A stretch of DNA of 64,000 bases from the human T2T-CHM13v2.0 reference genome, Homo sapiens. The stretch lies in NCBI RefSeq assembly GCF_009914755.1, contig NC_060926.1; one strand, written 5' to 3'. The notes below the pieces were generated by a model. It was not told the origin of the DNA. It saw nothing but the letters and a program-made list of their open reading frames with translations, and did no database searches. The position numbers and the translations under genes are program-made. Of the stretch, positions 11,923 through 48,164 are shown piece after piece (within the stretch, counting starts at the first letter, position 1; the number at the start of each line of letters is the position of its first letter).

Positions 11923-12434
11923 TTGTGCCTTGAAATGTCCCTGCTCGGCGCGCCTGGTCCCAAGCACGACCTGCCTGCGGGCTTGGAGTGTGGGGTGTGC
12001 CTTGCTGCCTAGCTCTGGCCCTTTTGTGTCTCCCCACCCTCCCGTTGTGTCTGTACTTTGTTCCCCTCACTTATCTGGCTATCATATGGAAAAGCACATT
12101 TTCTTTTCTGAATTATTCCTTGAGTGTATTGAATCAAGTTTCGGGTCTGGTTTTCAACTGGCAAACGGAACACACAGAGTGATGGGCAGGCCAGGTGGGA
12201 CCCCCAGGGCTCATGGGGTGTTGGGGGCTGCGTCTGGAGGGGCCGTGATGATTTAGTTTATGATAAATTCACAGCTGGGCAGAGGGTGGGGCCTCGGGCT
12301 GCATCTGTTTCACACCCGGGAGCTGTCTTTCCATCTGTCTGCCTGCCAGCTCTCCATCCACAGCCTGTTCATGTAACCCGTCCTTCTCCCAGCCATGCCC
12401 ACCCTAACCCCTTTTCCATTTCTTTACGCTTCAG

Positions 12435-12476
12435 AGGAGCCTGCAGGTGCTGTCAAGCCTTCGAAAGCCTCAGACT
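12435..12476 (+). CDS. DYSF: Dysferlin exon 17 (42 nt, alternatively spliced, phase 1-1): EEPAGAVKPSKASD
   Basis: Branch-like ccctaac at ~12402-12408, acceptor ttcag, weak donor ACT|gtacgt. Matches the known 14-aa cassette exon. Confidence 0.93.
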
Positions 12477-12597
12477 GTACGTTGCTGTCACCTTGGGGAC
12501 AACCAGGGGAGTGGGGCCTTGGGTTTTGGCTAGAGGGGCGAGGGTGCTGGAGGCATGGGGTTTTTGATTTGCCTGAGGTGGGATTGAGATTCCCCCA

Positions 12598-12625
12598 CAA
12601 AGGTAAGTCCCTGGACTTACCTTTG
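12598..12625. repeat. Perfect 13-bp inverted repeat containing a consensus 5' splice site
   Basis: caaaggtaagtcc-ct-ggacttacctttg; the two arms are exact reverse complements. Confidence 0.95.
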
Positions 12626-14031
12626 CTGTCACCTCTCGGCCTCTGTGGAGCATGTAAATCATCTGGAATGCTTTAAGGGGCAATTTCCTCCCACTTCCCC
12701 CAACCCTTCCTAAATGGGATAGGCTTGGGCTGATGCTCGAGTTAGACCACTCTGTCTGGTAGTGAGGGGTAGGGGCAGGCATGGGGGTCTGGAGTGGGGC
12801 AGGGGGAGTGTGAGGTGTTTCAGGGGCCAGGAGGAGGCCAAGAGGAGTTAAAAACTCTTGGAGTTGAAATCCCCAAGGTAAATCATAATTGAGATGATTA
12901 ACGCAAATAATTAGTAATGCTCCTGTTAGCCCACCTACCTGGGCCTCCCACCTCTCCTGAAGGCCAGTGCCCTGTCTGTGCTGGGGTCTAGGAGACAGAA
13001 GGTGTTGAAGGAGGTGGGGAGGCCCCTGGCTGAGAGGGGAGGTGAGGCTCCAGCCTTCTGGTCCATCCCTGTCCTGGCCCCTTCCTCATCCCTAGGGTCT
13101 GGGCAGGGGCTCGACTCACAGTGCATGACCTTAGGTCTAGCTCAAACGCTTCTTTGCTGAGGCCATTTGTTTTGTGCCTACTTTGGCCCATCCTTGTGTG
13201 GACTGATTGGGTCGTTCCAGAGGGTTCCTGTCTCTGGCCCTGCTTTCTACCTTTGGCATTTTGGAAACAACCTCTTCCCCATTCCTCTGAAAGGGACACT
13301 GTGGCATTTTAGGGTTTTCAGAGCATGGCCAGTAAAGTCCCATCTGGGAAACTCAGCTGTGAGCTGGAAAATGATGTTAGTAAAAGAGAGCCTCCAGAAA
13401 AGGATGAAAGAATGTGGAGAGATTTCCCCTCTTCAGGAGTGTAATTCTCGAACTCTCCTCTGACCTGCTCTGTTAAAAAATTGTTCTTTGTACAATGTGT
13501 GTGTGGGGAGGAGATTCTGGGATAAGGCAAGGCCGTTAGGGCAGAGGGTATGTGCCTGGGGGCTACCCTAGGGAGGAGGAACGGCTAGCTGGGCTCCATC
13601 CCTGGCCTCCTGGGAGATGGTTTCTCTGGTTACCGGGCTCTGGGACCTCTTAGCCCCTCCCCATTGGCTGCAGGGCCTACAGTGCCTATAGAAGCGTAGG
13701 ATGGAGAGCACATGCAGGACATGCTGGGGGTGGGGCTGGGGAGGGGCACGAGCAGTGGAGGGCCTCAAACCCCAACTTTGTGTGCTGGCTGAGTGCATGG
13801 GCTTTGAGGTGACACCATTCTGGACCCTGCCACCTTGTAGTCTTGTGTTTCTTTGCATCTCCAAGCCTCGGTTTCCTCATCTGTAAAATGAGACTAATAA
13901 AAATATGATTGCATCTCAGCATGATGGTGAGGAGTAAAGAGACTTAGGGGAGGGCGTGAGAGCTATCGCTCGTGGCGTTCTTCTTTATACACTGACAGGA
14001 GCTGCATCTGGTGCATGTGGGGGGGAACTGA

Positions 14032-16891: not shown

Positions 16892-17016
16892 GGTGCCACT
16901 ACTACTACCTACCCTGGGGTAACGTGAAACCTGTGGTGGTGCTGTCATCCTACTGGGAGGACATCAGCCATAGAATCGAGACTCAGAACCAGCTGCTTGG
17001 GATTGCTGACCGGCTG
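16892..17016 (+). CDS. DYSF: Dysferlin exon 21 (125 nt): [42 protein letters not shown]
   Basis: ttccag acceptor and CTG|gtgagt donor. Frame is continuous with its neighbours. Confidence 0.97.
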
Positions 17017-46370: not shown

Positions 46371-48164
46371 TGCTGCTCTGAGGGGCCCCCTGACCCCTTT
46401 TACATAAGAGATGGGGGATGGCCCCCAACAGTAGTGCCCCTTCCAACAGCCCTGCCACAGGTGCTCTTCAGGCCCATCCTGTGTAGGAGTTGAGTCCTCC
46501 CCATAAAGTGAAGGAGGGTAGCCAGCCTCCAGCTGGTCCACACCCATCTGCTTGACTCTGCTGGAGCAGGGAAGGTCTCTGTGGCCTCCCTGGTGGCCCC
46601 TGAGATGTTTCCTTTCTGGCCACTGTGGGGCTTTCCCCTGCCTGCTCAGCCCCAGGAAGCCTCACTGCTTAGCCTGTGACTTGTTGCTGTGTCCACCCCT
46701 GCTCTGGCCCTTCTGTCACCTTACTGTCTCCACTTTATAGATCCTGAGCCAGAACTCTAGGCCCTGTTTAGACCAAGGCACCATTGCAAACAGAGGGTCT
46801 GCAGACAGAGGGCACAGACACCCCGTGGTGCAGAAGGAATCTCAGACATGCTGGTGGGCTCGATCTTGGTACTGATCTGATTTAGGTGGGTTGAGGAGTC
46901 CCCTTTGTAGGCTGTGTTTCCCCAGAACCTGACTATCTCCTCCTGGCTGTGGTCCTTGGATATTAGTCCTTGGCAGACTCAGGTGAGTTTGGCCATTGGC
47001 TCTGGGGACCCCTGGGGGAGCCCTGTGGCTCTGGGAGGCAGAGAGTTCCTCATATTCCTATGCTCAGGCTCCTCCAGGGAGCCGTGGCTTCCAGCCGGGC
47101 AGCAGCGGGTTGGAGGCCACCCAGTTCCCTGGACAAGCAGCAAGATCCCTTACACAGCTAGCCCAAGATGGAGTGCGTGGCCACAGACCGTGTGGCTGCC
47201 AGCCCCAGCCTGGGAGTTGCGGTGGCATGAGCTATCAAGGCAGGAATGTGACTGTGGGAAACCCAATGCCCTGGGCCTGGCCCTGGGGCTGGGCAAGAGT
47301 GTGTGTGTGTGTGTGTGAATGGGGGTGAAGGGTGGGTGGGCAGAAACCAGGGCATCAGCCTCTCCTGCAGCTTGGCTCTGCACGGGGCTCAGAGTGGGAG
47401 CAGAGGCAAAGCGGCCCTCCCTGTCCTGGCCTTGTCCACCTGGCCAAGCCTTTCCTCTAGGCTCCAGTGTGCTGCTGCCGCTCTCCCAGTTCCAGCACCC
47501 TCCTTCCCCTCCTCCAGGAAGCCTTCCTGAAGGGGCTTCCAAAGGCCTACCCCATTCCATCCCACCCCACAGATGGCCTCATCCTGGGGTGTAAGTGAGT
47601 CCACATTAATCCCTTTTTCCATAGTAACATCAGACCCGACTCTGAGCTTCCTGAAGGTAGGAGGTGCTGTCTGATGCACCTTGCCTGTCCTTTGCCCTGG
47701 GACCTTAGGCCTGGGTGCTGCACATGTGGCTTAGGGCGAGGGAATTCTGGTGATTGACTGCATGTGATAAATCTTCATTGGACGCCCACTACATGCTCGA
47801 TGTTGGACTGGGTGCAGGGGATAAAGGAGTGTGTATGTCTTGCCTGCATACATGGAGGGTAGATGCAGGGGAGAAGCTGGGAGAGGCTGGGTAGGGGCTG
47901 CTGCTGAAGGCTGGGCAGCCAAGGAGGTGCCCATACCTCAGAGATGATGCAGCTAAGGAAGAGCCTGAGTTAGCTCATTTGAGAAGACATTCCAAATGGA
48001 GAGGACGACATCCCTGCATAAAGGCCCTGTGGCAGAGGAAAGGTTATGAATTCAAGAAATTTACAGAAGGCCAGAGGAGAGGAGTGTTATTTAACAAGAG
48101 CCTAGAGAGATGAAAGAGTTAAACCAGGTACCTGCCAAGGACCGTGGGGTATCATTTCATTCAG

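What the first reader, a model, noticed from the sequence alone, without database searches (positions are those of the whole stretch)
12477..12635. Consensus 5' splice site locked in a U1-mimic hairpin, 126 nt (in frame) downstream of alternative exon 17
Seen: 12598-12625 is a perfect 13-bp inverted repeat (caaaggtaagtcc-ct-ggacttacctttg). Chance expectation is about 64000/4^13, or ~0.001 per spacer length, under a uniform model. The left arm is a perfect donor, AAG|GTAAGT (GT at 12603), much closer to consensus than exon 17's own donor ACT|GTACGT. The right arm contains ACTTACCT, the U1 snRNA 5' recognition sequence, so the transcript can pair with this donor as U1 would. gaggtg (12575-80) and cacctc (12630-35) can extend the stem. 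Using this donor lengthens exon 17 by exactly 126 nt with no stop codon and the same phase, inserting 42 aa (CTLLSPWGQPGEWGLGFWLEGRGCWRHGVFDLPEVGLRFPHK) before exon 18. Known: exon 17 is a differentially included cassette, and hairpins masking 5' splice sites control splicing in MAPT exon 10 and SMN2 exon 7. Inference: this could be a structural switch or decoy giving three outcomes (skip, include 42 nt, include 168 nt). Deep-intronic variants in the right arm could unmask the donor. I know of no description of it.
Basis: partly seen in the sequence, partly recalled or inferred. Interest (0 to 1): 0.8.

Follow-up and report, generated by a model that had tools for sequence, protein, structure and literature searches.

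The report
Hairpin-masked decoy splice donor in DYSF
A perfect little hairpin in a dysferlin intron hides a textbook splice-donor sequence just downstream of a weakly spliced alternative exon; it is real and rare, but nothing yet shows that it is used or regulated, and it probably arose in one step as a replication copying error.

Summary
Window 12598-12625 is a perfect 13-nt inverted repeat with a 2-nt spacer. As RNA it folds into a 12-bp stem with a CCUG loop (-15.8 kcal/mol), and this stem is predicted in every context tried. Its left arm is AAG|GTAAGT, and using that donor would lengthen exon 17 by 126 nt in frame. The region is single-copy in the genome.

- The "U1 mimic" follows automatically from reverse-complementing a consensus donor.
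- The outer GAGGTG/CACCTC stem is not favoured (probability 0.001-0.12).
- A repeat this long appears in about 3% of random windows of this composition.
- An open frame of 42 codons or more into the intron occurs at 9 of 17 other exons here.
- No RefSeq transcript in the supplied table and no paper found uses the donor.

New points:
- Exon 17's own donor is the weakest of 18 in the window.
- Exon 17 is the only exon with a far stronger donor-like site close downstream.
- The intervening 126 nt is G-run-rich and looks like intron.
- The right arm resembles exon 17's own donor region.

Best reading: a pseudo-donor that was masked from the moment it arose by template switching. It is occluded and silent, not a demonstrated switch. 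No cross-species data were available, and that is the decisive gap.

The parts
12435..12476 (+). DYSF alternative exon 17 (42 nt, c.1481-1522)
   Evidence: Supplied annotation ('exons of other transcripts 12435-12476'). In frame between exon 16 and exon 18. Tissue-specific inclusion from passages in PMC10056012, PMC3179367 and PMC4230592.
12474..12482 (+). Exon 17's own donor ACT|GTACGT, the weakest of the 18 annotated donors in the window
   Evidence: 5 of 9 matches to CAG|GTAAGT. Duplex with the 8-mer ACUUACCU is -0.8 kcal/mol, against -5.1 to -9.4 for the other 17. Opening cost is 3.4 kcal/mol, so it is accessible.
12477..12602 (+). 126-nt stretch between the two donors: 40% G with 8 G-runs, open in the exon 17 frame
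   Evidence: 8 runs of G3 or longer, against a window mean of 2.75 per 126 nt. (frame open for 66 codons, stop at 12674).
12598..12610 (+). Left arm of the inverted repeat. Contains the consensus donor AAG|GTAAGT (9-mer 12600-12608, GT at 12603 = c.1522+127)
   Evidence: It is one of only 2 MAGGTRAGT sites on the + strand of the 64-kb window, and neither is an annotated donor.
12610..12613 (+). CCUG loop of the RNA hairpin (the innermost C-G of the 13-nt repeat stays open)
12613..12625 (+). Right arm GGACTTACCTTTG, an exact reverse complement of the left arm. Contains ACTTACCT.
   Evidence: Pair probabilities are 0.965-0.996.
12614..12634 (+). Second copy of direct repeat D1 (first copy 12473-12493, which is the end of exon 17 plus its donor): 17/21 ungapped, 19/22 gapped, 12 nt exact
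   Evidence: 8 of 2000 shuffles reach the alignment score. Meaning unexplained.
12575..12580 (+). GAGGTG, a possible outer-stem partner of CACCTC 12630-12635. Not a favoured pairing.
   Evidence: Paired in the 91-nt fold. Mean probability 0.001-0.117 in larger contexts.

Best explanation
The element is a single-copy, perfect 28-nt near-palindrome in DYSF intron 17. It most likely arose in one mutational step, by short-range template switching during replication that copied one arm as the reverse complement of the other. One arm happens to spell a consensus 5' splice site, so the other arm is necessarily U1-like. The site was therefore masked from the moment it existed.

In the pre-mRNA the right arm emerges 2 nt after the left. 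A 12-bp CCUG-loop hairpin forms locally and withholds the decoy donor from U1 snRNP. Splicing then chooses only between exon 17's own very weak but accessible donor and skipping. The own donor is probably helped by the G-run-rich sequence just downstream.

On this reading the hairpin is a constitutive occluder of a pseudo-donor, not a regulated switch. The 168-nt exon form is absent or trace.

What is shown and what is inferred:
- Shown: the sequence, the predicted fold and its robustness, the frame, the relative donor strengths, and the single-copy status.
- Inferred: the template-switch origin, occlusion in vivo, and the lack of regulation.
For: - Perfect arms with no mismatch or G-U pair. 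The region is single-copy genome-wide, so it is not a repeat-family feature.
- It is the only perfect inverted repeat of 10 bp or more in the window. Shorter ones (8 bp: 15; 9 bp: 4) are at random expectation. That pattern fits a one-off mutational event.
- Template switching is documented to create perfect hairpin stems in one event, with thousands of events between human and chimp (abstracts of PMC5453318 and PMC8794818).
- Genome-wide, the pattern MAGGTRAGT-N0-12-ACTYACCTK occurs at 19 loci, of which 9 are perfectly complementary. Five composition-matched inverted-repeat controls gave 1, 7, 8, 33 and 41 loci. Donor-type hairpins are therefore neither enriched nor depleted, which argues against a widespread selected class.
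- The hairpin is predicted in all contexts tried. The donor's opening cost is 11.6-15.4 kcal/mol, against 7.5-8.9 for the MAPT exon 10 donor and 3.0-3.6 for exon 17's own donor.
- No use is recorded. The supplied RefSeq table (14 transcripts) has no 12435-12602 exon.
  - 0 papers hold 'c.1522+' with dysferlin.
  - 0 papers hold the sequence.
  - The 6 papers with 'dysferlin' and 'intron 17' do not concern it, judging by title and abstract start.
  - The exon 17 passages I read in a targeted DYSF RNA-seq study of blood and muscle describe only inclusion or skipping (PMC10056012).
- The 126-nt extension looks like intron: 8 G-runs and 40% G.
Against: - The arrangement is conspicuous. Of the 18 exons with an annotated donor scanned in the window, exon 17 has by far the weakest donor. 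It is also the only one with a much stronger GT site within 300 nt downstream. This would make sense if masking mattered and were maintained by selection.
- A crude energy balance (opening cost plus U1-like duplex) is about +3.3 kcal/mol for this site. It is about +2.1 for the MAPT exon 10 donor, which I recall is used in about half of transcripts. Thermodynamics alone therefore does not prove silence.
- One constitutive DYSF donor (17016) has a computed opening cost of 11.1, which shows how loose these numbers are.
- With the right arm reversed in silico the opening cost is still 8.7, so the hairpin adds only about 4 kcal/mol in this model.
- The right arm resembles exon 17's own donor region (D1). 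A simple one-step template switch does not explain that.
- A list of great-ape template-switch events has no entry near the estimated place. This is weak evidence, because my hg38 offset is recalled.
- I could not see any outgroup sequence, RNA-seq junction data or population variation.
Confidence: 0.5

Rival explanations
1. Selected safety lock. Whatever its origin, the hairpin is now needed. Without it the consensus donor would outcompete exon 17's very weak donor and put 42 extra residues into dysferlin. Purifying selection therefore keeps both arms intact, and arm-disrupting variants could be pathogenic.
For: - The weakest donor in the window is paired with the only strong nearby decoy.
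- The decoy's U1-like duplex is -9.4 kcal/mol, against -0.8 for the real donor.
- The arms are perfect.
- Structure-dependent attenuation of 5' splice sites through restricted U1 access is established for SMN2 TSL2 and for an MLV 5' splice site (abstracts of PMC1802598 and PMC2794156).
Against: - No conservation or constraint data could be obtained.
- Perfect arms fit youth as well as they fit selection.
- Single right-arm SNVs leave an opening cost of 8.0-12.7 kcal/mol, and 0 of 39 reach the annotated-donor median of 5.2. Individual variants would be weakly selected.
- I recall that G-runs lying between two competing donors favour the upstream one. If so, the decoy might be silent even when open (G-run count).
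Confidence: 0.25
2. Regulated structural switch. Helicases or RNA-binding proteins open the hairpin in some tissues. That would give three outcomes: skip, 42-nt exon, or 168-nt exon.
For: - The in-frame, stop-free 126-nt extension.
- The energy balance is only about 1 kcal/mol worse than for the MAPT exon 10 donor.
- Exon 17 is tissue-regulated.
Against: - No annotated or published 168-nt form (supplied table).
- A search for proteins carrying the extension found none. Only proteins of 98-2000 residues were searched, which by my recollection of dysferlin's length leaves out the full-length protein.
- The open frame is unremarkable (9 of 17 other exons).
- The insert is W/G-rich translated intron with 8 G-runs.
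- A 12-bp perfect stem is a poor rheostat compared with the short, mutation-sensitive stems of known switches.
Confidence: 0.1
3. Irrelevant coincidence. The inverted repeat is chance or a neutral mutation, and it has no effect on splicing, because the decoy would be ignored even if it were unpaired.
For: - About 3% of random windows of this composition hold an inverted repeat this long.
- The first stage read very many windows.
- Donor-type inverted repeats are not enriched genome-wide.
- The other consensus MAGGTRAGT in the window (46983) is intronic, not annotated and less structured, with an opening cost of 8.7.
Against: - A consensus donor inside the exon-definition range of a real exon with a near-null donor is the textbook setting for cryptic-site use.
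- The 46983 site lacks an upstream exon, so it is a poor control.
- The chance that a 13-nt arm pair also contains MAGGTRAGT is about 1.5e-4 (my arithmetic).
Confidence: 0.1
4. Downstream U1 landing pad. U1 snRNP bound at the decoy helps define exon 17 without the site itself being spliced, as engineered exon-specific U1s do. The hairpin limits this help.
For: U1 particles bound to intronic sequence downstream of a weak donor rescue exon inclusion (abstract of PMC4822034). Exon 17's donor needs help.
Against: The site is predicted to be paired with probability above 0.96. Nothing here tests U1 binding.
Confidence: 0.05

Closest known systems
MAPT exon 10 5' splice-site stem-loop
   Same: Donor nucleotides sit in a local stem at or after an alternative exon. 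Scored by the same method, the donor I take to be MAPT exon 10 has an opening cost of 7.5-8.9 kcal/mol and a local fold of -13.2. I identified that locus from the order of four PF00418 hits on contig 17 and from recall.
   Different: MAPT masks the authentic, used donor of the exon with a short, imperfect stem that I recall is sensitive to mutation. Here a perfect 12-bp stem masks an unused decoy 126 nt into the intron, while the real donor is open (3.4 kcal/mol).
SMN2 exon 7 terminal stem-loop 2 (TSL2)
   Same: RNA structure reduces U1 snRNP recruitment at a 5' splice site (abstract of PMC1802598).
   Different: TSL2 acts on the exon's own weak donor and was proven by mutation, compensation and probing. 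None of that exists for the DYSF element.
MLV 5' splice-site attenuation by a stem-loop (Zychlinski et al. 2009)
   Same: Restricted U1 access through structure. The interplay between U1 complementarity and stem stability (abstract of PMC2794156) is relevant because the DYSF decoy has near-maximal complementarity.
   Different: That case is a viral, functional and tunable site with limited U1 complementarity. In that system, increasing complementarity enhanced splicing, which warns that a consensus site may partly escape a stem.
Template-switch-generated hairpins (Loytynoja & Goldman 2017; Monttinen & Loytynoja 2022)
   Same: A perfect reverse-complement repeat with a very short spacer, single-copy and in non-coding DNA. 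The mechanism creates perfect stems in one event (abstracts).
   Different: The defining evidence is an outgroup lacking the repeat plus a clustered change explained by a four-point switch. I could not obtain it.
Cryptic or alternative 5' splice sites that extend an exon
   Same: A GT site downstream of an exon, in frame, stronger than the authentic donor.
   Different: No junction evidence that it is ever used.

Membership tests
5' splice-site-masking regulatory hairpins (MAPT exon 10, SMN2 TSL2 type) | Splice-donor nucleotides are base-paired in a stable local stem | tested here: met
   12-bp stem, -15.8 kcal/mol, pair probabilities 0.965-0.996, opening cost 11.6-15.4 kcal/mol. Prediction only, with no probing.
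5' splice-site-masking regulatory hairpins (MAPT exon 10, SMN2 TSL2 type) | The masked site is an authentic donor that is actually used | tested here: not met
   Not among the exons of the 14 RefSeq transcripts in the supplied table. No paper found. RNA-seq junction databases could not be queried.
5' splice-site-masking regulatory hairpins (MAPT exon 10, SMN2 TSL2 type) | Splicing changes when the stem is weakened and is restored by compensatory mutation | not testable with these tools
   Needs a minigene or an antisense oligonucleotide. In silico, single right-arm SNVs lower the opening cost only to 8.0-12.7.
5' splice-site-masking regulatory hairpins (MAPT exon 10, SMN2 TSL2 type) | The structure is conserved or covaries in orthologues | not testable with these tools
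Template-switch mutation product | A perfect reverse-complement copy immediately beside its template | tested here: met
   13/13 complementary with a 2-nt spacer. It is single-copy and the only inverted repeat of 10 bp or more in the window.
Template-switch mutation product | An outgroup shows the pre-event sequence, and one four-point switch explains the clustered change | tested here: inconclusive
   No outgroup sequence was available. The supplementary event lists of PMC7954356 hold no 'DYSF' and no coordinate beginning 71547-71551. My hg38 position is an estimate from recall, and those lists cover only great-ape-age events that passed the authors' filters.
Alternative 5' splice site (exon 17 long form) | Reading frame preserved without a stop | tested here: met
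   This is also true by chance at 9 of 17 other exons for 42 codons or more.
Alternative 5' splice site (exon 17 long form) | Transcript or protein evidence for the junction | tested here: not met
   Supplied annotation. One search scored no protein with the 55-residue exon 17 + extension peptide, and only proteins of 98-2000 aa were searched.
Recursive splice site | A strong polypyrimidine tract + YAG directly before GTAAGT, in a very long intron | tested here: not met
   By eye: ttcccccacaaAG|GTAAGT has AAG, not YAG. It has a 7-nt pyrimidine run interrupted by purines, and the flanking introns are 10 kb and 1.6 kb.
Any curated RNA family (Rfam 15) | Covariance-model match | tested here: not met
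   One search found no match at 12575-12635. There were two sub-threshold hits elsewhere (13290-13335 and 12840-12858).

The most novel reading that the evidence does not exclude
The hairpin is a selected lock on a potent decoy donor. It makes possible the use of exon 17's near-null donor. Its loss, through arm-disrupting indels or multiple variants at c.1522+122 to +149, would give an in-frame 42-residue insertion. Its tissue-specific opening by a helicase would do the same. Either would add a new class of deep-intronic DYSF variant or a third exon 17 isoform. The resemblance of the right arm to exon 17's own donor region (D1) would then hint that the lock was built from a local copy of that donor.
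Probability: 0.12. Interest if true: 0.6.

Novelty: new member of a known kind. Interest (0 to 1): 0.33.

Why it matters
- Some dysferlinopathy patients still lack a second identified mutation, and the known deep-intronic DYSF mutations act by creating pseudoexon splice sites (abstracts of PMC4241797 and PMC6469257).
- If the hairpin really holds back a consensus donor 126 nt beyond a very weak one, variants that break it would be a new and predictable kind of splice mutation. It would also be a clean natural model of how structure and U1 complementarity trade off.
- If it is only a neutral template-switch scar, it is one of about nine such donor hairpins in the genome. It would then illustrate how replication errors can create splice-like signals that are silenced from the moment they arise.

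Tried and rejected
- **Rfam:** nothing at the element. It is too short for a miRNA precursor.
- **Repeat family:** rejected. The palindrome and 12380-12800 are single-copy.
- **Genome-wide enrichment of donor hairpins:** not seen. There are 19 loci, against controls of 1, 7, 8, 33 and 41. Two controls are inflated by recurrent repeat sequences, so this is a rough comparison.
- **Protein evidence for the long exon:** none. The search excluded proteins over 2000 aa, so this is weak evidence.
- **Literature on RBFOX regulation of exon 17:** the search was unproductive. I saw only the listing, and none of the listed titles concerned dysferlin exon 17.
- **Great-ape template-switch lists:** no entry. 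PDF supplements and one large text file of that paper could not be read.
- **Tandem duplication of a 141-nt unit:** rejected. Only the 21-22-nt D1 segment aligns, and Tandem Repeats Finder finds nothing there.
- **Recursive splice site, DNA-level protein-binding palindrome, editing substrate:** considered from the sequence and set aside for lack of any supporting feature. They were not formally tested.
- **Thermodynamics as a decisive argument:** rejected. A constitutive donor scores 11.1, and abolishing the arm still leaves 8.7.

Full report
**Observation.** The sequence is as described.
- Arms 12598-12610 and 12613-12625 are 13 nt long, fully complementary and 2 nt apart.
- The left arm contains AAG|GTAAGT with GT at 12603. 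The right arm contains ACTTACCT.
- As RNA, the innermost C-G pair cannot close a 2-nt loop, so the fold is a 12-bp stem with a CCUG loop. It scores -15.8 kcal/mol with z = -5.9, and 0 of 200 shuffles fold as well.
- The stem is predicted in every context tried. Mean pair probability is 0.965-0.996 for flanks of 20 to 400 nt. It is present in both the 91-nt and the 301-nt folds.
- The proposed outer stem GAGGTG/CACCTC forms in the 91-nt fold only. Its probability is 0.001-0.117 otherwise.

**Frame.**
- This is not unusual here. The exon 17 frame stays open for 66 codons, to 12674.
- 9 of the 17 other exons in the window also read 42 codons or more into their introns.

**Chance.**
- In the real window, perfect inverted repeats with a spacer of 0-10 nt number 15 at 8 bp, 4 at 9 bp, none at 10-12 bp, and this one at 13 bp.
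- In 400 first-order Markov random windows of the same composition, 11 held one of 13 bp or more.
- Given how many windows the first stage read, length alone is not remarkable.
- That an arm also spells MAGGTRAGT adds a factor of about 1.5e-4 by my arithmetic.
- The U1-like right arm adds nothing further, because it is simply the reverse complement of a consensus donor.

**Genome-wide view.**
- The palindrome and its 421-nt surroundings are single-copy.
- The pattern MAGGTRAGT-N0-12-ACTYACCTK occurs at 19 loci. Of these, 9 are perfectly complementary over 9 bp.
- The arm lengths of those nine are 9, 9, 9, 9, 10, 10, 11, 13 (this one) and 17 (contig 23).
- A uniform model predicts about 9 loci and about 2 perfect ones (my arithmetic).
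- Five composition-matched inverted-repeat controls gave 1, 7, 8, 33 and 41 loci. These were the tool's reversed patterns and two permutations of my own. Two of them are inflated by recurrent repeat sequences.
- Donor-type hairpins are therefore neither enriched nor depleted as a class.

**Splice-site context.**
- Exon 17's own donor ACT|GTACGT is the weakest of the 18 annotated donors in the window. It matches the consensus at 5 of 9 positions. Its duplex with ACUUACCU is -0.8 kcal/mol, against -5.1 to -9.4 for the others. It is accessible, with an opening cost of 3.4 kcal/mol.
- Exon 17 is also the only exon with a much stronger GT site within 300 nt downstream (8 of 9 matches, -9.4 kcal/mol).
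- Only two MAGGTRAGT sites exist on the + strand of the whole window, at 12603 and 46983. Neither is annotated.
- The 126 nt between the two donors are 40% G and carry 8 G-runs, against 2.75 expected.
- From general knowledge, which I did not test here, G-runs just downstream of a weak donor act as intronic enhancers and act as silencers when exonic. That would favour the upstream donor.

**How locked is it?**
- The cost of opening the 9-nt donor is 12.7 kcal/mol with +/-100 nt of context, and 11.6-15.4 over other contexts.
- That is above all 18 annotated donors (median 5.2, maximum 11.1).
- It is also above the donor I take to be MAPT exon 10, scored identically (7.5-8.9).
- I found that MAPT locus through Pfam PF00418 hits on contig 17 and named it from recall.

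The margin is modest, for four reasons:
- A constitutive DYSF donor scores 11.1.
- Reversing the whole right arm in silico still leaves 8.7.
- The 39 single right-arm substitutions give 8.0-12.7, median 10.3.
- The balance of opening cost plus U1-like duplex is about +3.3 here, against about +2.1 for MAPT.

Equilibrium energies therefore support occlusion but cannot prove silence. The kinetic argument, that the partner is transcribed 2 nt later, is inference.

**Evidence of use.** I found none.
- The supplied RefSeq table lists only 12435-12476 as an extra exon.
- Passages in PMC10056012, PMC3179367 and PMC4230592 describe only inclusion or skipping of exon 17 (c.1481-1522). It is mostly skipped in blood. 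It is dominant in muscle, heart, brain and liver.
- No paper holds 'c.1522+' together with dysferlin, and none holds the sequence.
- The six papers with 'dysferlin' and 'intron 17' do not concern it, judging from the listing.
- A search for proteins carrying the exon 17 + extension peptide found nothing. It covered only proteins of 98-2000 residues.
- RNA-seq junction resources, gnomAD and ClinVar were not available.

**Origin.**
- Perfect arms, a minimal spacer and single-copy status are what short-range template switching produces in one event (abstracts of PMC5453318 and PMC8794818).
- I could not obtain any outgroup sequence.
- The supplementary event lists of a great-ape template-switch study have no entry near my estimated hg38 position. 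That estimate is recalled, so this is weak evidence.
12614-12634 (the right arm plus 9 nt) is a diverged direct copy of 12473-12493 (the end of exon 17 plus its donor). The match is 17/21 ungapped and 19/22 gapped, with 12 nt exact, and 8 of 2000 shuffles reach that score.

**Comparison with known systems.** It would work like the structure-based attenuators of 5' splice sites: SMN2 TSL2, the MLV stem-loop and MAPT exon 10 (abstracts).
- It does not meet a defining feature of that family, because the masked site is not a known, used donor.
- The mutational and conservation criteria are untested.
- It fits the template-switch hairpin class on structure alone.

**Verdict.** The feature is real and rare, and sits in a suggestive place.
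- Most likely (0.5): a pseudo-donor masked from birth that stays silent.
- Selected lock: 0.25.
- True three-way switch: 0.1.
- The deciding data are an outgroup alignment and junction counts. Both are cheap, and neither was available here.

Noticed in passing
window 12473-12493 and 12614-12634: Direct repeat D1. The hairpin's right arm and the next 9 nt are a diverged copy of the end of exon 17 plus its donor. The match is 17/21 ungapped and 19/22 gapped, with 12 nt exact and a spacing of 141. 8 of 2000 shuffles reach the score. As a result, the left-arm side can also pair weakly with exon 17's donor region: -15.3 kcal/mol, against -33.9 with the right-arm side.
   Followed up: partly
window 12474-12482: Exon 17's donor ACT|GTACGT is by far the weakest of the 18 annotated donors in the window (duplex -0.8 against -5.1 to -9.4 kcal/mol). 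This fits its alternative use.
   Followed up: yes
window 12477-12602: Eight G-runs in 126 nt (window mean 2.75) directly downstream of the weak donor. This is a candidate G-run intronic enhancer cluster. That role is recalled, not tested.
   Followed up: partly
window 12553, 12650, 12779: Three GCAUG cores within about 300 nt downstream of exon 17, against a window background of 1.23 per kb. They could be RBFOX-type sites, which would fit inclusion in muscle, heart and brain. No literature support was found (listing only).
   Followed up: partly
L010 (G000:C23:21801364-21801393): The longest consensus-donor hairpin in the genome: 17-bp perfect arms around CAGGTGAGT, an 8-nt spacer, -32.3 kcal/mol. 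Its gene context was not examined.
   Followed up: no
window 46980-46988: The only other + strand MAGGTRAGT in the window (CAGGTGAGT). It is deep intronic and not annotated, with an opening cost of 8.7 kcal/mol.
   Followed up: no
window 17017: The constitutive donor CTG|GTGAGT after exon 16892-17016 has a predicted opening cost of 11.1 kcal/mol, nearly as high as the hairpin-masked decoy. This is a caution about reading such numbers as function.
   Followed up: no
window 12590-12608: ttcccccacaaAG|GTAAGT has the layout of a recursive splice site (an acceptor-like AG abutting GTAAGT). However, it has AAG and only a short, interrupted pyrimidine run.
   Followed up: no
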